Origin: Mobula birostris
Lineage: Eukaryota
DNA: 64,000 nucleotides
Assembly: GCF_030028105.1 (NCBI RefSeq)
Contig: NC_092378.1
Span: forward strand, 8,574,762 to 8,638,761
Direction of reading: 5' to 3'
Shown: positions 33,944 through 61,288 of the stretch, piece after piece
How positions within the stretch are numbered: the stretch's first letter is position 1
Layout: each line of letters begins with the position of its first letter
Made by a program: the position numbers and the translations under genes
The notes under the pieces: model-generated
The model's database searches: none
What the model saw: only the letters and a program-made list of their open reading frames with translations
Told to the model about the DNA's origin: nothing

Positions 33944-34126
<183 letters not shown>

Positions 34127-34999
34127 TAATGTTACTTTCAAAATGTGGCGATGAAAAGACATAAAGCAAAAACCTTTCAAACCTGAGATACTGTCTGTAA
34201 CACTTTGAGTTAAGAAAATGAAGAGTTCATGGCCAGTAATATTAACAACCACCCACAGAATGCCAGCATGACTGACTGCATACTTCCAAAGTCTTCCATA
34301 TCAAATTGCCAGCATCTGCAGAACTTCTCTGTCCATGTTGGGAATAAATTATCTTAAACTCTTCTTAAACATACACATTTCACTTTCTTCCATAATTACA
34401 GCTATTTGTAGAAATTGCTAGACCAGTGTTGTTAAATCAGTGAAATGATAAAAATACAGGTCTGGCAAATAATAGAAAATGAAATGTGTGATCATTTTTA
34501 CCTGGTCTCCCTTTCATCAGTGGAAAAAGTCAGCAGTCTCCTCATTAGCCATTTCGGAACAGACCAAACTGTAGTGGAACTAGGACATTTACCTCAATGA
34601 CTGTCAAAGAAGATGATTGCACCCAACTACATTCTTGGGTTAAATCTTCATCATTCACAACTTGCTTAATTTTTTTATAAAGATGAGAAAATCTGAAGAT
34701 TTTGGAAATCTAAAGCAACACACACAAAATGCTAGAGGAACTCAGCAGGTCAGGCAGCTTCTATGGAAAGGAGTAAACAGTGGACGTTTTGGGCTGAGAC
34801 CCTTCATCAGGACTGAGAGAGAAGTGGGGGAGATGCCTGAATAAAAAGGTGGGTGGGGTGAGGAGAAAGAGGCTAGTTGGAAGGCGATAGGTGAAGCCAG
34901 GTGGGTGGGAAAAAGGCTGGAGAGAATGTGTGAGTGAGAGAGAGAGATAAACTATATCAATGATGATTCAGGAGAGATCTCAGTGCTCTTAGCACATAG

Positions 35000-35930
35000 A
35001 GTAGTATTGCACAGGAACAGGCCCTCTGGCCCACAATGTTATGCAAACTAATTAAATTGGTAATCAAATGCTGAACTAAACTTAACCCTTCTGCCCACAA
35101 AATGTCCATACCCTTCCATCTCTTGCACATTTATGTGCCTGCCTACAAGACTTTTGAATGCCCTTATGGTGGGGCATTCAAATGCCCCTACCACCACACC
35201 ACACATCTCCTTTGAACTTGCACCATCTCACCTTAAAGCGTTAAGACCATACAACATCGGAGCAGAATTAGGCCATTCAAGTCCACTCTGCCATTTCATC
35301 ACGGCCGATCCAGGTCCCATTCAACCCCATACACCTGCCCTCTCACCATATCCCTTGATGCCCTGACCAATCAGGATTCTATCAACTTCCGCTCTCTGGT
35401 ATTAGACATTTGAAACCTGGGGAAAAGATACTGGCTGTCTTCTCAGTCTATGCTTCACTCTTATAAACTTTTATCAGGTCTCCCCTCGGCCTTAGCCGCT
35501 GCAGAGAAAACAGCACGAGTTTGTGTAGCCTCTCCACAGAGGACATGCCCTCTAATCCAGGCAACATCCTGATCAATCACTTCTGCACCCTTTTCAAAAT
35601 CTCAACATCCTTCCCATAACGGGGCAACCAGAACCGAACACAATACTCCAGATGAGCTTTATGAAGCTGCAACATAACTTCTCAGCTCTCGAACTCAGTA
35701 CCTCGACTATTAAAGCCAAGTGTGCCATGATCCTTCTTTAGCACCCTATCTACCTTGGTAGCCATTATCCGAGAGCTACAAACTTGGACCCCAAGATCCT
35801 TTTGCTCATCGATACTTTTAGGGTCTTGCCATTATCAGTGAACCGCCCCTTTACATTTGATCTCTTAAAGGAAACACTTTGTATTTGGCCAGGTGAAACT
35901 CTCCCTGCCATTTCCCTGCCCACATATGCA
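35000..35930 (-). mobile_element. CR1-like LINE fragments
   Basis: Reverse complement of CR1 ORF2 C-terminal sequence (gagtattgtgttcggttctggttgcccc...; gggagacctgataaaagtttataag). Confidence 0.7.
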
Positions 35931-36022
35931 ATTAATCTTACCTTGCTGTATCCTTTTCCAGTCTGCTATTGCTGTCCACAACACTTGTATAACTAAATTG
36001 CTTGTGTATCTTGCATAACTGT

Positions 36023-36330
36023 GTGCACATGGCCAAGCGGTTAAGGCATTGGACTAGCAACCTGGAGATCGTGAGTTCGAGCCCCAGCAGAGGGAACGTG
36101 TTGTGTCCTTGAGCAAGGCACTTAATCACACATTGCTCTGCAACGACACTGGTGCCAAGCTGTATGGGTCCTAATGCCCTTCCCTTGGACAACATCAGTC
36201 TCGTGGAGAGGGGAGACTTGCAGCATGGGCAACTGCCTGTCTTCCATACCACCTTGCCCTGGCCTGCGCCCTGGAGAGTGAAGACTTTCCAGGCGCAGAT
36301 CCATGGTCTCGCAAGACTAACAGATGCCTT
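36023..36330 (+). mobile_element. tRNA-derived CORE-type SINE
   Basis: A box TGGCCAAGCGG, B box GTTCGAGCC, then the CORE-like gtgtccttgagcaaggcacttaatc. Confidence 0.7.
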
Positions 36331-36349
36331 TTTTTTTTATCTTGCGTAA

Positions 36350-36685
<336 letters not shown>

Positions 36686-39257
36686 TAAACCAAATATTTG
36701 AAAGAATATAAATTTGTGAAAGCCGAAAGAAAGAAAAAAATGATCCGTAGTGCCCTACCTGAACTGTAATTTTTGCAGAAATACAGACTCTGCAATATTA
36801 GGCCTTTTATCACAATATTTTGACATGAGCAATCAGTGCCTCATATAGGCAATTCCTTCTAACTAACCCAGTCACTTTTGACCTCTGTCTCATGTACATG
36901 GGCCCCTCCTCAGTTTTCCTCCTGCATACAGCAGCACCTCGTCCTCCTGTACATGCAGGTGTACTTTCTCACTCTTCAAGTATGCAGTCACACCCATCGT
37001 GCCCTTTTTTGAGCATAACCTTATCATGTAATCTCCTGTTGTCAACTCACCCCTTCCTAGCTAACCACTGGTAATCGCAACCTTCACCTCACCCACAGAG
37101 AACATGCAAGCACCCCTTTCCAAACAACACCCGCCAGTTAGGTCCCCCAACCCTGTGAGTGAGCCACTTCTGGAACCCACCTCCGAGTGCCCACCCTTTC
37201 CCAGGGCCGGGGAGGTTCTGCTGCTTCTGAGAACATACGTTTGCGTGGCTCCCTTCCCCTTGCCAGGCCCACTACCTTCCCACATACTAGTTCCCTGTCG
37301 TGACCCATGTCTGCATGTGTGAGCCCTAGCACCTCCAAACCTGCAATATGCACCCTTTCCCTTATTCTGCCAAATGCCACCCGACGCATCCTTTCCCCTC
37401 TGGCTATACCTGCCTGCCCACCCATGTAGTCCTTCTGAGACAGCGCGCCTGCCCCTGTCACTTGCCAGTCTTCTGTCCCCATATACCTGCCTCTCCTTAT
37501 AACACACACAAAATGCTGGAGGAAGTCTGCAGGCCAGGCACCATTTATGGAAAAAAGTGAACAGTTGATATTTCAAGCTGAGGCCCTTCATCAGACTCGC
37601 TCTACACCTGTGGTATTCCTTCCTGGAACTAACGTGAGCGGCAGACTCCTACCCATCTGTCTCCAGATCACATGCCGTCCTGGGACAGCCACCAACATGT
37701 TCTCAGCCTTTCCTGCCTCTACTTACACACCCTAAACAAGTGGCAGCCCATCCCTTCCCAGCAACCTGCCCACACACCACCAGTACAAGAACCTACTTGC
37801 CCGTCCCCTTTCAAGACCGCGCTTCTGATGTCCTTGCCCGCCCCCTTCTCCGATCCCGTGTCTGCGTGCCACTCATCCAGTACCCCCATCTACATTTACA
37901 CCAGTTACAAGGCCCCATTTCTTACTCCCCTACTTTCATATTGCACCCTCACTCTGACTTGCTCAATTTTACCGGTGTTTTCAGTTTTATTTCATATAGT
38001 TGTGTAAGATTTCATTCAAAATTAACAGTCTCAAAATGCTGGAGGAATTCAACACTCTATGCATGCAACAACCGGTTTCCTGTCAGCCCTCCATTAAAAG
38101 CCACCAGTTAACAGGAAGGAAATGGAGCAGCAGTATAAAAGGCAAACAGATTAAAAATTAAAGTATTAACAATGTGGGATTTCAATTATCCCATCTATGA
38201 GAATCAATGGGGCAGCGAAATTTTAATGTAAATTTTTTTAAAAAATCATACACTGTGCTCAGTTTCATTCAAAATTAACACACACAAAATATCGGAGGAA
38301 CTCAGCAGACCAGGCAGCATCTGTGGAAATTAATAATAAATAAATATTTCAGGCCAAGAATCCTGAAAAAGGGTCTCGGCCAGAAATGGCGACTTTTTTT
38401 TCTATCGATGCTGCTGAGTTCCTCCTCCAGCATTTTGTGTGTGGTGCTCTGGATTTCCAGCATCTGCAGACTTCCTCGTGGTTCTGTTGAATATTATATT
38501 GGATATGAGTTCATTTTTGGATGTTAGTGATACAAAAAATTTAAAAAGCACATCCCGATTTTAATATATTTACACTATTTTCTCTAAATATAAGCCTCTT
38601 TTGATATCCAATTATTTTGCTTAATGTGCATTACAAAATAGGTTTGTAAGACGAATCAATTATACAGCCTTATTTCACAAGCACAAGAAGTCCTTCATGA
38701 ATTTGAAACAGTCAAGAATTGTGGATTTGTAAAAATTTCAGTAAAGGATATTCAGTGTGTTGTGTCATGGACAGATATGATAGTTTATCAACTGTAGTGA
38801 TTTTTCCCCCCTCAACTTGAATTTTACTGTTTACTTACTTTAATAATTGTCCAACTTTTATTTGTTTTATAAAATATACCTCCTTCATTGCTTTGAAAAT
38901 AAACTATAAGTTTTACCACACTTTACATCATTTTTTTCTAGTTGTAATTTGGTAGGCTTCTAGTTGGAATTATCTGTAAGAATATGACCTAAAGAATGGA
39001 GACAAAGCTGAAATCTGGAATGATAATGCCTTGAGCCTGTTCATCCACTCAGCAAGTTGATAATTGCTGCTTGTCATGTGATCAGGTGTATCAATTTCAA
39101 TCTGGAACAGAATGACTCAACATTTCTTACTCAGCGACTGTCTGGAATAGAGAAAATCCAGTTGCCACAGCACACCCTACCAAGTTAATTTCAGTTATTT
39201 CACAATATTTATATGTAAGTAAAATTGCTAATGTTAATGTCCAAGGAAAGGAAATGA

Positions 39258-39653
<396 letters not shown>

Positions 39654-47294: not shown

Positions 47295-47762
47295 ATATGG
47301 GGGGGGGGGGCACTGCACAGGAGCAGAAAAAGCTGCATAAAATTGTAAAAGTCATCAAGTTGTGTATGTGACTGAAGTTGTAATCTCGGCCAGCTCCACC
47401 TTGGGCACTAGCCTCCTCAGTATCCAGATAACCTCAGAAGGTGGCATCCATCATTAAGGACCCCCATCACCCAGGACTTGCCCTCTTCTCATTGCTACCA
47501 ACAGGAAAGAGGTCGACGGCACACACTCTGTGATTCAGGAACAGCTTCTTCCCCTCTGCCTGAATGGACATTGAGCCCACCAACACTTCCCTCAGTATTT
47601 CCCCTCTCTTTCTGCGCTACTTATTTAATTTTTATATATGCCTTTTGTATTATATTATTATGTATTGCATTGTACTGCTGCCGCAAAAACAACATATTTC
47701 ACGACAAACAACAGGAATTTCACGACATGTGCCGGTGATATTAAGCCTAATTCTGATTCTGT
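47295..47762 (+). mobile_element. Rex1/Babar LINE 3' end
   Basis: catccatcattaaggacccccatcacccagg...ttcaggaacagcttcttcccctctgcc...ggtgatattaagcctaattctgattctg. Confidence 0.75.
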
Positions 47763-47864
47763 GTTTCCAGCATTTTCTAGTTTTATTTCCACCATCAGTC
47801 ATGCTGCCTTACATTTGTATGCTGTGAGTTAACAAAGTCCGGAATATGAGGGTGGGAGAAATGA

Positions 47865-48170
47865 AGACGCGGAATTCAGCCGAACCGGCGACAGAGGCGG
47901 TCACCATGGAAACGGGAGGAGGGGGGCGGGACAGGGGTCGGCGCCCCATCCCCGCCCATTGGCGGTTAGCTTTTTGCCGCGCACCGTTCGGACTGTTTGT
48001 TGTCTTTTGAAGTGAGCACGGCAGTGGCCAATGGGACGCGGCGGAGCCGGTGACGACGGGAGGGCGAAACGAACGGCCGCAGAATTGGCAGCTGCAGTGG
48101 CCAATGGGACGCGGCGGAGCCGGTGACGAAGGGAGCGCGAAACGAACGGGCACAGAATTGGCAGTGGTAC
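47865..48170 (+). promoter_or_regulatory. CpG-island, cell-cycle-type promoter of the Spo12-like gene
   Basis: RFX X-box GTCACCATGGAAAC 47900-47913; GC boxes 47923-47930 and 47950-47957; CCAAT/ATTGG at 47958, 48028, 48084, 48101, 48157; E2F TTTGCCGC 47973-47980 and GCGCGAAA 48135-48142; CHR TTTGAA 48006-48011. Confidence 0.8.
48021..48166 (+). repeat. Tandem duplication, 2 x 73 bp, inside the promoter
   Basis: gcagtggccaatgggacgcggcggagccggtgacga...cagaattggcag starts at 48021 and again at 48094. Confidence 0.95.
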
Positions 48171-48210
48171 CGGTGAGAGAGGGAGAGCGCGGAGTGAAGG
48201 GGTTGCTTAG
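48167..48210 (+). other. Putative non-coding first exon of the Spo12-like gene (5' end uncertain)
   Basis: Consensus donor TAG|GTAAGT at 48210/48211, at the 3' edge of the CpG island. Confidence 0.7.
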
Positions 48211-50826
48211 GTAAGTGAAAATACCTTGCATGTGAAGCAGGTGAAATACTGCGGGTAATTACTGCCTGCAATTTCACAAAAAAAGGCTCTAAGTTGGTCC
48301 TGATGTTTGGAAGGTGATAAGTTGTTCTGCGACTTGCTGCTCCCGCTGTAAAAGTTCTTGGTGCAGATACTATTGTATTTTATTTAAAAATCCTGCAAGA
48401 GAATAAATCTCGAGGTACCATAAGGTGACATATACGTAATGCATTTACTTTTGACTTCCGCTGCTAAAACAGGTGCAATGTAAAAGCCTACAGTCCTCTC
48501 GTAGACCTGCAGCCAATTCCAGAGTTTATGCATTCTACCTTCATTTACATAACAACTAAAATAGTTTTTCCACTTAGGGGGTGTGTGACTTCAAGCGTTA
48601 ATGATTCATGTATGTGAGATGCTTGTATAATCATTTACAATGCTCTTGATAATTTATTTTGAAATTAACTGCTGTACTTTAAAACCCGAAGATGGATTCA
48701 GTGCACAAAAAAAACTAAGGGATGACTCGAAAGAGTAGAGCCAATTTGGTGATTTTTTTTTTGTTGACTGGAACTAAAACGGAATACTGGAAACACTCAA
48801 GGTCAGGCAGTCTTACTTTGATAGAATTAACATTTCAGGTCAAAGGTCCTTTATCAGATCTGAACTATCAACTTTTTTTTGCTTTCGAAAGATATTGCTT
48901 GACGCACTGTGTGTTTCCTGCAGTTGGCTGTTAATTCTGTTTTTATTTCAGCTTTCTGTTATCTGCAGTTTTCTTGGATGTTCTTTGTTAACCGTTTTCC
49001 ATCGAGGGTATGAATGAGACTGCTGCCTCGACAGTCAAATTCAATCCTAACCACTGGTGCTGTGTGGCGATGCGTGATCTCATGAATGTGTGGGCTTTCT
49101 CTGGGTGTGGTTTCTGCTAACATTCTGAAGATGTGGGTTGTTAGATAAATTAGGGCCACCGTAAATTACCCTTGGTTTGTAAGAGTGTAGTTGAATCTGG
49201 GGAGAGTTGGTTAAAGTAGGGGGAGAAATTTTTAAATGAAGTGAAATTAAAGTAGGATGTTCAGCTGTGATGGTATCAGGTTCCCTGTCTGCAAAACCTT
49301 AAACTCAAAAGATTTTAAGCCCTATCTGGTATAGATATCTATGGGCACCCTCACTCTAGAGGTTATACTGTATCCACCTACTCTTCCGGTACTAGCTTTC
49401 TTCCCTGTCTAGTCACTGCAGGGAAGGCTAGCTCTAAGTACCCACTGCTTGAGTGGAGGGTCACCCCTCCCGACGAAGGCAATATAGCCACCTAACAAGT
49501 ATTTTCAACAATGTTTATATTATTTTTATTGATACATGTGTAAATTTAGACATAGTTCTTAACACATTTAACACTCAGGATTTCTGTTTTGTGAAAGATT
49601 TGAGTCCCATAGGATTTACAAACTGCAAAGAATTTACAAACGGATACAATTATTACCAATTAAAAGAACATACCAATGAGTTGCAGTTGCGTGAGTCATC
49701 TGTTGCAGAAACTGAAGGTTGAGGAATGAATTCTGGTCTTTCTGTAATTCCCCTTATCATTCTGAACAGTCCCCAATGTTTTCTAATGTTTAGCCTGTTT
49801 TGCTACTAGATTACGTCATCTGCATGTGATGTTTTCCAGATACTTTTGCTGGGGCAAAGTAATGCTTATAGATAGTCTAAAAGCTTCTAGGGTCAATGGT
49901 GCAAATAATGTAGTTGTTCCCTGGTTTAATGTAAGCCATTTAACATTGGCCCATTGTCTTGTGTTTGGCTAAGGCACACAAGAATCCCACTTTGGAAACT
50001 TACTGGAATTAATTAAAATATTTATTTAGAAAGGCAATGATGAATTGGGGATAGTTGTGTCGACTTGCTAAGGAACTGCTGTGATTAACTAACTTTGTTG
50101 TTCCCAGCTGATGGCAAATTCACTGGGGACAGATATGCTAGCTATAGTCTATATTAAATTTGTCAAGGTTCCATATAGCAGCCTACTTTTTTTTTGTACA
50201 ATTGAACACATCATTAACAGTTAAACACTCAGCAATCTCTCTGGGAGGGGACAGAGATGGGCTGACTCCTCAACCTCGGGAGGGAGGACAATCTCATCTG
50301 GGCCGAAGTACTTCACACTCGATGACTGTGAGCCCCTTGGCCTCTCTGTTTAAGGTGCCATTTGGCCTCCCTAGTTGTCTACTGCCGCATTCCTCGATCT
50401 GGCAGGTGGTGAATGAATGAAAAGCCCACAATGATGGCAAGGGAGACACCACAGAAGAGAGCACCAGCCTTATGTTCCACATCCACCACAGGGTCTGCAG
50501 TTGTCGAACAGGTTGACCTTGCTCACGTGCCAGACACGTAGGCCGGGCTCTTGGGCTAATGAAGTGGCCTTCCTTGTGGAGGGAGTGTCCCAGGGACGGG
50601 AATTGTGTGGGATAATGGAGGGGCAGTGTGTTGGGGGAAGGAAACTAAAGAAGCTAAAATGTGGTTCTTTTTCCTTAGCTGATGTAGAGAGATTGTTTTG
50701 TATCATTTGTTTTCTATATTTATTGATATCTTCAAAGTTGTATTTATCTATAGATGCTTGTATCTAATAGTCAACCTTAAACAGATTTTTCTTTGTTTTT
50801 TTTTCCCTTTTCCTCAGATTTTTGAG

Positions 50827-50918
50827 ATGAACACAAACAAGGCCTTGACTAAACATAGTGACCCAAACCAGCAGCCACCAACTCCAAGTCTAATGAAGAG
50901 AAAACGAGCACAAGAAAA
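50827..50918 (+). CDS. Spo12-family small protein, coding exon 1 (exon starts at 50818)
   Basis: Long polypyrimidine acceptor ttttttttcccttttcctcAG|ATTTTTGAGATG; MNTNKALTKHSDPNQQPPTPSLMKRKRAQE(K); donor AA|GTAAGT, phase 2. Confidence 0.8.
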
Positions 50919-51000
50919 GTAAGTACTTTGGAAAAGAAGATAACTTGAATAGCCACACTTGGTGTTGTTTTGGTGTACTTAAATTGTTTTTCATGTCTAG

Positions 51001-51084
51001 GAAACTTTTCAGAAGCCCTACGGACAGCATGTTGTCACCATGCTCACAGAGGCTGATGAAACCAAAGCACGTCAATCCTACAGA
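51001..51084 (+). CDS. Spo12-family small protein, coding exon 2 carrying the Spo12 motif
   Basis: ttgtttttcatgtctAG|GAAACTTTTC...CCTACAGA|GTAAGT; 84 nt, phase 2-2; (K)KLFRSPTDSMLSPCSQRLMKPKHVNPT(E). Confidence 0.85.
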
Positions 51085-51354
51085 GTAAGTTTTATTATCT
51101 GCGGTTTTAATGCATCACCATTGTAAATCACAGTCACTTAATTACCTGTCCACATGTTAATTCAATACAATAAAGATGTTTTTCTAATAAACCTGCTTTC
51201 ATCACACCCCCTAAAATGGGGCTAGAGCATAATATCTGAAGAAACTGATGGGGGTAGCTTTTTTTTTTAAATTAAATAATTACGGGAATTTTTTTTAATA
51301 CAGCAATGTCACTTCGGTACAGATTGAGATACTATTAGTGGATAGTGGATACTA

Positions 51355-51830
51355 TTGAGAGAGAGGAGATTTACAAGGATATTGCCTGGATTGGAGAGTG
51401 TGCCTTATGAGAATAGGTTGAGTGAACATAGCCTTTTCTCCTTAGAGTGGCGGAGGATGAGAGGTGACCCGATAGAGGTGTATAAGATGATGAGAGGCAT
51501 CGCTCATGTGGATAGCCAGAGGCTTTTTCCCAGGGTTGAAATGGTTAACACAAGGGGACATAATTTAAAGTGCTTGGAAGTAGGTACAAGGGGGATGTCA
51601 GAGGTAAGTTTTTCACACAGAGTGGTGGGTGCATGGAATGCATTGCCAGCAAAGGTGATAGAGTGGATACAATAGGGTCTTTTAAGAGACTCTTGGATGA
51701 GTATATGGAGCTTAGAAAAATAGAGGGCTATGTGGTAGGGAAATTCTAGGCAGTTTCTAGAGTAGGTTACATGGTCGGCACAACATTGTGGGCTGAAGGG
51801 CCTGTAATGTGCTGTAGATTTCCATGTTCT
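51355..51830 (+). mobile_element. CR1-like LINE 3' end in an intron of the Spo12-like gene
   Basis: ORF RRFTRILPGLES..YENRL...EWRRMRGD.IEVYKMMRG. Confidence 0.88.
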
Positions 51831-52374
51831 CCAGAATTTTGAGTCTGACTTTCTTGTTTGTCATTTCTTTGTGATTTTGGCCTTGCAATAATTCCCATTT
51901 TCCTCATGTCACTTAAACATTAGCTGTTATTTGCAACTATCTGTTCCTGTTCCTCCCGTATTTGTATTTCATTCATCAACATGTACCAGTCTGACATTCG
52001 TACTTTGTTTTGCTCTCTCCAACATCTTTTGTTACTGTATTGTAATTAGAAATAACATGTTTAAGATAAAGTTCTTCATTCTTGGCTGCTTGATTAACAA
52101 AGTTTGCATATAGTTTAAAAAAGATACAGTTGCATATAGTTTTTAAAAAAAAGCTATATTCTCATGGACTTGATTTCCTAAAGACCCACTTGCTTTTGTT
52201 TTAAGGAAGTATCTTGGTAAAACTTATTTTGCCTCATTTTTCAGCAAGGTGCGGGAAGCAAAGTTTGCTGGCAAGCAGCAATGTACAATTCAGTCTAGTG
52301 TGCTATTAACCCAAAAATGAGCATAAACAATGTACCTGAAGAATTCTTCACTCTGATTAAGGACTTTCTCAGTA

Positions 52375-53132
52375 TAATGGACTCCGGTTAATTGGGACCA
52401 GTACATTTTGACCCAATTAATCTGCTGGCCCAATTAACTGAAGTTTCATGGAAATAGTTAAAAAGGAATAAACAAAAGATGAGCTACTATTTAACTGAGT
52501 AATAAATTATGTATTTAAATGAAATACAAATTAGAACACTACCAATACTATTAAGGTACGATAAAACTTAAATAGTTGCTAATAGTTATCGACGGAGGAA
52601 TTCATCCAGTGTTCACTGCTATTTTCTTTTGATTGCCTGTAAATGAACAAAATTAGTGCAGACACCTAGTTCAGATAATGGACGGTCTTCATACAAACTA
52701 TTGACAATTGTATCCTCCAAATCTTTAATTTCATTGTAACATCAAAGAAGATTATCGGTAACTTCAATTAATCGTAGGTCCTAACTTGTTACATTAGTGA
52801 AAGCATTTTCACTCCTGGCTGTCTCTGGCATCTTGAAATTATAGTGAGCAAAGCATTACTGAATTGTCTGAATTGCTTATCTCTTGCCAACTATCGGTGA
52901 CAAAAATCACTTTTTTGAACACAAATACATGCAATTGATGTTATTTATAAACTGTTTGTTTTAAGCGCGGTGTAGTGTCTAACAAGTGCATGCGATTGAT
53001 ACTAGATCGAAATTATTTGGCAACCGTCTCCTGTCCCAAATAAGTGGCATAGTGTCCCAAGTAAACAAAGGAAATCCCACCTATTTTCTCCATTAGTTTT
53101 TAAGGGTTGTTCCAAATAACCAAAATCTACTG
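52375..53132. mobile_element. Non-autonomous pogo/Tigger-like DNA transposon (MITE)
   Basis: Imperfect ~26 bp terminal inverted repeats (taatggactccggttaattgggacca / ttgttccaaataaccaaaatctactg), flanked by TA at 52373-52374 and 53133-53134. Confidence 0.7.
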
Positions 53133-53427
53133 TACATGTTTTAAATGCGGTTGATTTCTTGGGAAGTTCTAGTTCTATCAGAGAATTCTTGTGGTTTGTT
53201 GAGGAATTTTAGATCTTATTCCTATCTTCAGTAGTTTGGTAGGAAATGTGTCATTTCTGACTCACAATAGAAGCCAACTGAAAAATTTATTCATAAATAT
53301 GCAATTGGAATGGACACTTTGCCAATGTTAATCTTTTTCTGTTAAAACTGTCTAATTAGAATATCAAGTTGCTTGACAATGTAAATCTGGGTACACAAGT
53401 TACAACCTAATGTTTAATTGTCTACAG

Positions 53428-53536
53428 GTTTCAAAATGGCAAGATTACTGCACAACACGAATCAATTCTTGACGACAAAGAGAATAACTTCAGTACTCGG
53501 GAGCAGAGACTTTCTTTTGGAAGAAATGACAACTGA
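53428..53536 (+). CDS. Spo12-family small protein, last coding exon (KEN box, stop); total 94 aa
   Basis: ctaatgtttaattgtctacAG|GTTTCAA; (E)FQNGKITAQHESILDDKENNFSTREQRLSFGRNDN*; in frame with the preceding phase-2 exon. Confidence 0.72.
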
Positions 53537-53775
53537 TTTTTTTTTTGCGTGGTGGTGGGGAAGTGGAATATAATGTACAGTGACTTTAAGTGCTCTGTAC
53601 AGAGGAAGAATATATAAGCTCTATTCCCTTAATTTAAATTTCATGTGCACTTCTTTGGGACTATATACACTACTGATGTTTTAATTAGGTAAAAATTATT
53701 GTAAGATTATGGGATATAAATCTTACACTTTCACTTTGTCATACAATGTACAGGTTTTTTTTTGGATCATTCAAA

Positions 53776-53826
53776 AATAAAGGTCACTCTCTATCTGGTT
53801 TCCTCCTGTTTAAGAGCCTGAATAAA
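53776..53826 (+). terminator. Polyadenylation signals of the Spo12-like gene
   Basis: AATAAA at 53776-53781 and 53821-53826, with upstream UGUA motifs at 53574, 53596 and 53747. Confidence 0.6.
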
Positions 53827-54058
53827 AGAAATTAATACTTTAATCCTGCAATGGCAAGTGGAAAATATTTCAATATGAAGCTTGTATTTAATTCTTAAAA
53901 GATGTGAAGGGGCTTTACAGGAGTATGGGTGCTAAGTCAATTGATATGGGGGGAGGGGCCACTTCATGTACCATAAGAACTTCGGAGTCTTATTGACAGA
54001 TTAGGACATTAGGATTTGGTATAATGGGTGAGGTTTCTTTAGTTAAACCGTTAGACTT

Positions 54059-61159: not shown

Positions 61160-61288
61160 ATGGCGAGTGGCGGCAAAACCTACTCGTTTAAAGTTGTCCT
61201 GCTCGGGGAAGGCTGCGTGGGGAAGACATCACTGGTTCTGAGATACTGTGAGAACAAATTCAACGACAAGCACATCACTACGCTTCAG
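61160..61288 (+). CDS. RAB21: RAB21 GTPase exon 1 (remaining exons beyond the window)
   Basis: MASGGKTYSFKVVLLGEGCVGKTSLVLRYCENKFNDKHITTLQ (Rab21-type P-loop GEGCVGKT); donor CAG|GTTCGT; syntenic with TMEM19. Confidence 0.95.

What the first reader, a model, noticed from the sequence alone, without database searches (positions are those of the whole stretch)
47865..48170. Orphan CpG-island promoter with a cell-cycle (E2F/CHR/NF-Y) architecture plus an RFX X-box
Seen within ~270 bp: five CCAAT/ATTGG boxes, two E2F sites (TTTGCCGC and the reverse of TTTCGCGC), a CHR (TTTGAA), GC boxes and a near-palindromic X-box GTCACCATGGAAAC. It lies 13 kb from RAB21 and downstream of TMEM19, so it belongs to neither. 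Established: CHR plus multiple NF-Y boxes typifies DREAM/MMB-FOXM1-regulated G2/M genes, E2F sites mark proliferation genes, and RFX factors act in spermatogenic and ciliated cells. Inference: this independently supports a cell-cycle or germline role for the Spo12-like ORF, echoing the mitotic expression peak of yeast SPO12.
Basis: partly seen in the sequence, partly recalled or inferred. Interest (0 to 1): 0.7.

Follow-up and report, generated by a model that had tools for sequence, protein, structure and literature searches.

The report
Promoter of a vertebrate Spo12 gene
This CpG island is not an orphan: it is the start and first exon of a small spliced gene of the yeast-known Spo12 family, and its motifs suggest it is likely switched on with other cell-division genes, which would fit a mitotic role for a gene unstudied in vertebrates.

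Summary
The listed motifs are present, but four of the five CCAAT boxes and one E2F site lie in a 73-bp tandem duplication. The island is not orphan. Contigs from two studies splice 48210 to 50818 at GT..AG, giving a 4-exon transcript for a 94-aa Pfam Spo12 protein. Homologues occur in sharks, sturgeon, eel, tarpon and frogs, with Cdk-type SP sites and a KEN box invariant in 8 of 8 aligned. Same-genome controls favour the G2/M reading: two or more CCAAT plus a canonical CHR within 200 bp occur in 5 of 8 G2/M islands and 2 of 44 others. A CHR alone is common (13 of 44), strict E2F sites did not discriminate (0 of 52), and most CCAAT boxes lie downstream of the CHR. The X-box is rare (1 of 52 controls, in CCNO), and fission-yeast spo12 is an RFX (Sak1) target (PMC4538799). 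Verdict: likely an ordinary CHR/NF-Y late-cell-cycle promoter on an interesting gene; regulation untested. The scan found this gene before in another shark genome (e1-8585416).

The parts
47865..48210 (+). CpG island: promoter and non-coding exon 1 of the Spo12-family gene
   Evidence: 65% GC, CpG o/e 1.16; single copy; spliced contigs
47900..47913 (.). X-box-like near-palindrome (predicted RFX site), 2 mismatches to a recalled consensus
   Evidence: 1 of 1000 shuffles and 1 of 52 control islands; 6 such sites in 998,837 fetched bases
47924..47957 (.). two GC boxes (47924-47929 +, 47952-47957 -)
   Evidence: ordinary in CpG islands
47958..47962 (-). CCAAT box outside the repeat, 43 bp upstream of the CHR
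   Evidence: CCAAT-then-CHR pair in 21 of 3000 shuffles
47973..47980 (+). E2F-consensus match TTTGCCGC, not in CDE position
   Evidence: strict E2F sites in 0 of 52 control islands
48006..48011 (+). canonical CHR hexamer (predicted LIN54/MuvB site); no GC-rich CDE 4 nt upstream
   Evidence: definition from PMC4176359
48021..48166 (+). 73-bp tandem duplication (48021-48093, 48094-48166); each copy has a CCAAT (48028, 48101), an ATTGG (48084, 48157) and an upstream ATG (48031, 48104)
   Evidence: TRF period 73, 2.0 copies, 94%; 6 differences in 73; uATGs
48135..48142 (-). second E2F match, in copy 2 only, inside sequence covered by transcript contigs
48100..48210 (+). exon 1 as far as the main contig covers it (a minor contig reaches 48027); donor GTAAGT at 48211; true start not shown
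   Evidence: X1 contigs 48027-48129 and 48100-48210; X8 48144-48210; loose ends match exon 2
50818..50918 (+). exon 2, start codon at 50827, basic KRKR stretch
51001..51084 (+). exon 3, Spo12 motif with two SP sites 7 residues apart
   Evidence: Pfam PF05032 28 bits, cut-off 20.5; joints
53428..53818 (+). exon 4: KEN box, stop ending 53536, 3' UTR
   Evidence: four exons sum to 687 nt, the length of the X1 contig

Best explanation
The island is the promoter and non-coding first exon of a spliced, single-copy Spo12-family gene, and it likely works as a late-cell-cycle (CHR/NF-Y) promoter. Shown: exon 1 splices to three further exons encoding a 94-aa Spo12 protein. Inferred: NF-Y on the CCAAT boxes and Sp factors on the GC boxes give basal activity; MuvB bound at the CHR represses in G0/G1 as DREAM and activates in G2/M as MMB-FOXM1; an RFX dimer at the X-box adds activation, either in mitosis or in germ and ciliated cells. 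The protein would then act, like S. pombe Spo12, as a Cdk1-activated PP2A-B55 inhibitor and be removed through its KEN box at mitotic exit. A recent 73-bp duplication doubled two CCAAT boxes and is probably incidental.
For: Splicing: joint 48210-50818 (GT..AG) in X1 and X5, exon-2 loose ends at 48210 in X1 and X8: 3 of 7 runs laid, 2 studies. The X1 contig matches all pieces listed with 0 other letters, and its 687 nt equal the four exons. Controls in G000 (gene names recalled from translated fragments): CCNA2 carries a CDE/CHR like the mammalian one (recalled) and CCNB2 three CCAAT then TTTGAA, so the CHR code is recognisable in this genome. Three or more CCAAT plus canonical CHR in 200 bp: 3 of 8 G2/M islands, 0 of 44 others (p=0.0025); two or more: 5 of 8 against 2 of 44 (p=0.0004). 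CCAAT then canonical CHR within 60 bp: 5 of 8 against 4 of 44. The island meets all three, even with one repeat copy removed. The CHR lies within 200 bp of every contig 5' end seen (48027, 48100, 48144, about 48188), the window used in PMC4176359. Independent of the promoter: SP-x5-SP and KEN invariant in 8 of 8 aligned vertebrate homologues. S. pombe Spo12 is a Cdk-regulated PP2A inhibitor with sites 7 residues apart (bioRxiv 10.1101/2025.10.28.685054). Budding-yeast Spo12 is listed as a known APC substrate (PMC3128521, one passage).
Against: No binding, timing or tissue data. A canonical CHR hexamer occurs somewhere in 13 of 44 control islands and in 15-19% of shuffles. PMC4176359 required conservation, which cut 47,444 CHR-like hits to 7,570; conservation could not be tested here. 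In 7 of 8 G2/M controls a CCAAT lies 12-52 bp upstream of a CHR or variant; here only one of five CCAAT is upstream, and if most transcripts start after 48104 the CHR sits at about -100 to -180, upstream of four boxes, which is atypical (PMC4176359). No CDE. One RHO-family control island also has three CCAAT plus a variant CHR. Controls are few, were picked and thresholded by me after viewing, and 14 of 66 islands were set aside as ambiguous.
Confidence: 0.62

Rival explanations
1. It is the Spo12 promoter but a constitutive NF-Y/Sp1 CpG-island promoter; the CHR and E2F matches are chance, and cell-cycle control of Spo12 is at protein level only (Cdk1 sites, KEN box).
For: CHR alone is frequent (13 of 44 islands; 926 of 5000 shuffles). 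CCAAT boxes give basal activity in many promoters (PMC4176359); control islands with 4 or 5 CCAAT in 200 bp and no CHR exist (UBC_L062, CKS_C3). The CCAAT count is inflated by the duplication.
Against: The CCAAT-plus-CHR combination separated G2/M from other islands and survives removal of one repeat copy (5 of 5000 shuffles).
Confidence: 0.2
2. RFX is the main driver, and the gene is expressed chiefly in spermatogenic or multiciliated cells, with E2F and forkhead-like sites as in ciliogenesis genes.
For: The X-box is the statistically rarest motif (1 of 1000 shuffles); the only control island with an equal match is CCNO, named as a motile-ciliogenesis regulator in the abstract start of PMC13720309. 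It lies within the -500/+500 window for human RFX targets (PMC5838959). RFX2 acts in spermatocytes and spermatids (PMC4498915, passages).
Against: The protein's conserved features are those of a mitotic regulator. The forkhead-like 7-mer at 47994 is common (37 of 66 islands). The X-box consensus is recalled and was scored by mismatches, not by a matrix.
Confidence: 0.13
3. The four repeat CCAAT boxes and the CHR read on the minus strand (CCAAT, 16 bp, TTCAAA) control a divergent leftward transcript rather than the Spo12 gene.
For: That geometry resembles the CKS and CCNB2 control islands (gaps 18 and 19 bp; 16 bp here). PMC4176359 suggests element order sets direction.
Against: The transcript actually shown runs rightwards from this island, and a CCAAT-then-CHR pair also exists in the rightward direction.
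Confidence: 0.05

Closest known systems
[quoted passage not shown] 2014, PMC4176359)
   Same: Canonical TTTGAA near the transcript 5' end, several CCAAT boxes, CpG island; CHR plus E2F promoters are a described class with late timing.
   Different: Most CCAAT boxes lie downstream of the CHR and come from a duplication; no CDE; conservation and binding untested; carries a strong X-box, which the passages read do not list among CHR-promoter elements.
S. pombe spo12 regulation by Sak1 (RFX) and Fkh2 (Garg et al. 2015, PMC4538799)
   Same: Same gene family; spo12 is a Fkh2 ChIP target and a Sak1 target that falls in sak1-ts; the Sak1 motif GTTGnCntggcAAC resembles this X-box.
   Different: Yeast uses forkhead sites, not CHR/MuvB or NF-Y; there is no evidence here that the sites are homologous rather than convergent or tissue-related.
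Spo12 family (Pfam PF05032), Cdk1-regulated PP2A-B55 inhibitors (bioRxiv 10.1101/2025.10.28.685054)
   Same: Pfam hit over cut-off; two SP sites 7 residues apart; small protein.
   Different: The preprint's main text has 0 occurrences of 'vertebrate', 'metazoa', 'human' or 'animal' and proposes FAM122A as a functional analogue; PP2A binding of the vertebrate protein is untested.
RFX X-box promoters of ciliary and spermatogenic genes (PMC5838959, PMC4498915)
   Same: 14-bp near-palindrome close to the transcript start.
   Different: The gene is not a known ciliary gene; combined with CHR and CCAAT boxes.

Membership tests
CHR-regulated late cell cycle promoter | Validated CHR hexamer | tested here: met
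   TTTGAA at 48006
CHR-regulated late cell cycle promoter | CHR within 200 bp of the TSS | tested here: inconclusive
   Contig 5' ends 48027-48188 are all within 200 bp, but contigs cannot show a start and two ends are repeat-caused breaks
CHR-regulated late cell cycle promoter | CHR conserved across related species | not testable with these tools
   No other vertebrate genome is held; the second organism's contigs begin downstream of the CHR
CHR-regulated late cell cycle promoter | CCAAT boxes upstream of the CHR | tested here: inconclusive
   1 upstream (43 bp), 4 downstream; controls 7 of 8 have one 12-52 bp upstream
CHR-regulated late cell cycle promoter | CDE 4 nt upstream (optional; 23% of CHR promoters in PMC4176359) | tested here: not met
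   The upstream sequence is T-rich; the E2F match ends 25 bp before the CHR
CHR-regulated late cell cycle promoter | DREAM/MMB/FOXM1 binding and G2/M peak lost on CHR mutation | not testable with these tools
   Needs ChIP and reporter assays
RFX target promoter | X-box match beyond chance, near the TSS | tested here: met
   2 mismatches to a recalled palindrome; 1 of 1000 shuffles; 1 of 52 controls; about 130-290 bp upstream of contig ends
RFX target promoter | Conservation and RFX binding | not testable with these tools
   No orthologous promoter or ChIP data
E2F (G1/S) promoter | E2F sites that mark early cell-cycle genes | tested here: inconclusive
   Two strict matches (57 of 5000 shuffles), one in a single repeat copy; strict pattern found in 0 of 52 controls and in none of the cyclin E islands
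Spo12 family (PF05032) | Domain score over Pfam cut-off | tested here: met
   28 bits against 20.5
Spo12 family (PF05032) | Two Cdk-type SP sites 7 residues apart | tested here: met
   S36 and S43; invariant in alignments A1 and A2
Spo12 family (PF05032) | Phospho-dependent inhibition of PP2A-B55 | not tested

The most novel reading that the evidence does not exclude
Spo12 has kept RFX-driven mitotic transcription from fission yeast (Sak1) to jawed vertebrates: here an RFX X-box works with the animal CHR/NF-Y module, and weaker X-box-like sites in this genome's cyclin B1, cyclin B2 and one CKS promoter mark a wider RFX input to vertebrate G2/M genes, the question left open by Garg et al. 2015.
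Probability: 0.12. Interest if true: 0.7.

Novelty: new member of a known kind. Interest (0 to 1): 0.38.

Why it matters
The promoter type is textbook. Its value is that it completes the gene model and gives a second line of evidence, apart from the protein, that a Spo12 gene kept in sharks, basal ray-finned fishes and frogs is a working mitotic regulator. That makes the yeast Cdk1-Spo12-PP2A switch testable in frog cells or egg extracts. The X-box offers a precise site at which to ask whether RFX factors drive mitotic genes outside fission yeast.

Tried and rejected
Family search PF05032 in G000 found nothing (0 of 1); the model is short and exon-split, and a protein search then found the gene once (2 exon hits plus 1 hit at E=1.2). 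No RNA holder was listed as RNA on record; tissues are unknown, so expression level and tissue were not used. No contig covered 47790-48026 in the 4 runs and X3 laid nothing; blanks are not used as evidence on the start site or on antisense transcription. Contig ends at 48027 and 48100 were rejected as start sites: each is exactly the first 31-letter word unique to one repeat copy (first difference at unit position 37). A transposon origin of the island was not supported (1 match, though that search skips very common words). An alternative exon 4 near 52245 was dropped: contigs skip 51085-53427. X-box enrichment in G2/M controls was not significant (3 mismatches or fewer: 3 of 8 against 5 of 44, p=0.09; 2 or fewer: 0 of 8). 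An X-box/CHR/CCAAT cluster 1.1 kb upstream of the Spo12 homologue in L105 lies inside the neighbouring ORF and was rejected as chance. PMC5473564's 'SPO12' is a sample label. My first exon coordinates were off by one (translation discarded) and were corrected. The Atlas search with P0001 gave Spo12 clusters at 0.91, 0.90 and 0.88, adding little. No fold or complex job was run.

Full report
Observation. The stretch is a small CpG island (65% GC, CpG o/e 1.17; window 42%, 0.36) and is single-copy in G000. It holds four of the five CCAAT boxes, so three are independent, and the reverse TTTCGCGC exists only in copy 2. In dinucleotide shuffles the CHR hexamer alone is unremarkable (926 of 5000). 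Three CCAAT boxes after removing one copy are moderately unusual (41 of 5000). The X-box (1 of 1000) and the CCAAT-plus-CHR cluster (12 of 5000; 5 of 5000 with one copy) are unusual. The motifs were chosen after seeing the sequence.

What it belongs to. TMEM19 (DUF92) exon hits lie at 33962-39545 and the RAB21-like ATG at 61160 (name recalled). A GTAAGT donor follows the island at 48211. Eight runs from two studies held part of 47500-54000, none on record as RNA; I laid seven. Their contigs join 48210 to 50818 at GT..AG in X1 and X5, 50918 to 51001 in 4 of 4, and 51084 to 53428 in 3 of 4. X1 and X8 contigs leave the island at 48210 with exon-2 letters. The four exons sum to 687 nt, the length of the X1 contig, and encode 94 aa from ATG 50827. 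So the island is the promoter and non-coding first exon of this gene. Contigs cannot show a start. Their 5' ends are 48027 (depth 3.5) and 48100 (depth 399) in X1, 48144 in X8 and about 48188 in X5; the two X1 ends coincide with the first unique 31-letter words of the repeat copies, so they are assembly breaks. An upstream ATG at 48104 opens a frame overlapping the main ATG out of frame, which suggests (inference) that productive mRNAs start downstream of it.

The gene. Exon 3 scores 28 bits on Pfam Spo12 (cut-off 20.5). The protein is 78-81% identical to two shark proteins and 49-52% to sturgeon, tarpon and frog proteins. A vertebrate profile found 17 proteins among 1036 candidates: sharks, sturgeon, eel, tarpon, frogs and one mite, no amniote row; that word-seeded search does not prove loss in amniotes. 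Mite and sponge homologues also appeared. SP-x5-SP, a basic stretch and a C-terminal KEN are invariant in 8 of 8 vertebrate sequences aligned (the KEN-less frog isoform P0003 was not included; KEN as an APC/C-Cdh1 degron is established knowledge, recalled). The preprint 10.1101/2025.10.28.685054 (abstract, section 8 part 1, discussion and passages read; supplements not seen) shows S. pombe Spo12 is a Cdk-activated PP2A-B55 inhibitor and does not mention vertebrates. An earlier scan note (e1-8585416) reported this gene in another shark genome and gave me that paper; I confirmed the gene here, not its function.

Is the architecture diagnostic? I built controls from G000: regions upstream of cyclin, CKS, BUB, E2-enzyme and Ras-family exons, 74 regions in all, yielding 66 CpG islands. 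Gene names are recalled from translated fragments. Eight islands were taken as G2/M promoters (CCNA2, B1, B2, B3, two BUB, two CKS), 44 from 35 genes as others (not all verified as promoters), and 14 were set aside as ambiguous (cyclin E and F, extra islands near positives). CCNA2 shows a CDE/CHR like the mammalian one (recalled) and CCNB2 three CCAAT followed by TTTGAA. Three or more CCAAT plus a canonical CHR in 200 bp: 3 of 8 against 0 of 44; two or more: 5 of 8 against 2 of 44; with CHR variants, three or more: 4 of 8 against 1 of 44. CCAAT then canonical CHR within 60 bp: 5 of 8 against 4 of 44; with variants 7 of 8 against 9 of 44. The island passes these. Against: a CHR somewhere occurs in 13 of 44 others; strict E2F sites occur in 0 of 52, so they do not discriminate; only one of five CCAAT boxes is upstream of the CHR, whereas Muller et al. 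(PMC4176359; abstract, sections 19, 23, 31 and passages) generally find them upstream and rely on conservation, which I could not test. Thresholds were mine and post hoc.

The X-box. It has 2 mismatches to a recalled RFX palindrome. Only the CCNO island matches as well among 52 controls, and 6 such sites occur in 998,837 fetched bases. It could mean cilia or sperm (PMC5838959 section 9 and passages, PMC4498915 passages). It could also be mitotic: in S. pombe the RFX factor Sak1 activates mitotic genes, and spo12 is named as a Sak1 target down-regulated in sak1-ts (PMC4538799; abstract, passages, discussion; supplements not read). Weaker X-like sites occur in CCNB1, CCNB2 and one CKS island, but not significantly (3 of 8 against 5 of 44, p=0.09). 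Two of three metagenome Spo12 loci have a CCAAT-then-CHR or variant pair within 250 bp of a presumed ATG (L105, variant only: 51 of 3000 shuffles; L106: 227 of 3000; the third was not tested so) and no X-box there; this is a lead only.

Print. A search for RFX, mitotic genes, cyclin B2 and X-box gave 0 papers. One for X-box, RFX, CHR and DREAM gave 41, of which I saw 20 listings, none on vertebrate G2/M promoters by title. Searches for vertebrate Spo12 showed none in the listings seen (30 of 58; 20 of 4,643, all with 0 'spo12'). The library lacks most subscription papers.

Verdict. Shown: promoter and first exon of an expressed, spliced Spo12 gene. Likely (about 0.6): CHR/NF-Y control with a G2/M peak. 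Open: the role of the X-box. The promoter is a new member of a known kind; the interest lies mostly in the gene, already noted by this scan elsewhere, and in the low-odds RFX parallel with fission yeast.

Noticed in passing
L025 (G000:C5, about 13.6 kb upstream of the cyclin-box hit): Cyclin A2-like promoter with three CCAAT boxes and a CDE/CHR nearly identical to the mammalian one (recalled), showing deep conservation of this element.
   Followed up: partly
L009 and L010 (G000:C6, C18): Cyclin B1- and B2-like promoters each carry an X-box-like 14-mer with a perfect GGCAAC half-site next to CCAAT boxes (3 mismatches).
   Followed up: partly
L015 (G000:C4): Island upstream of the cyclin O-like hit has a strong X-box (2 mismatches) and an internal tandem repeat.
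   Followed up: no
G000:C6:32594894-32618140: Two tandem B-type cyclin loci about 21 kb apart; only the first had a clear upstream CpG island.
   Followed up: no
L047 (G000:C3, CKS-like): CpG island with many CCAAT boxes (5 in 200 bp) and no nearby CHR.
   Followed up: no
window 48031 and 48104: Each repeat copy supplies an upstream ATG; the first gives a 31-aa uORF, the second a 39-aa frame overlapping the main start, so start-site choice could tune translation.
   Followed up: partly
window 48180 and 53537: The second organism's contigs have an 8-letter insertion in exon 1 and a 1-letter deletion just after the stop codon; the reading frame is unaffected.
   Followed up: no
L105:3-1178: A Spo12 homologue in a compact eukaryotic contig sits head-to-head with an ORF resembling a CAF1-type deadenylase (name recalled).
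   Followed up: no
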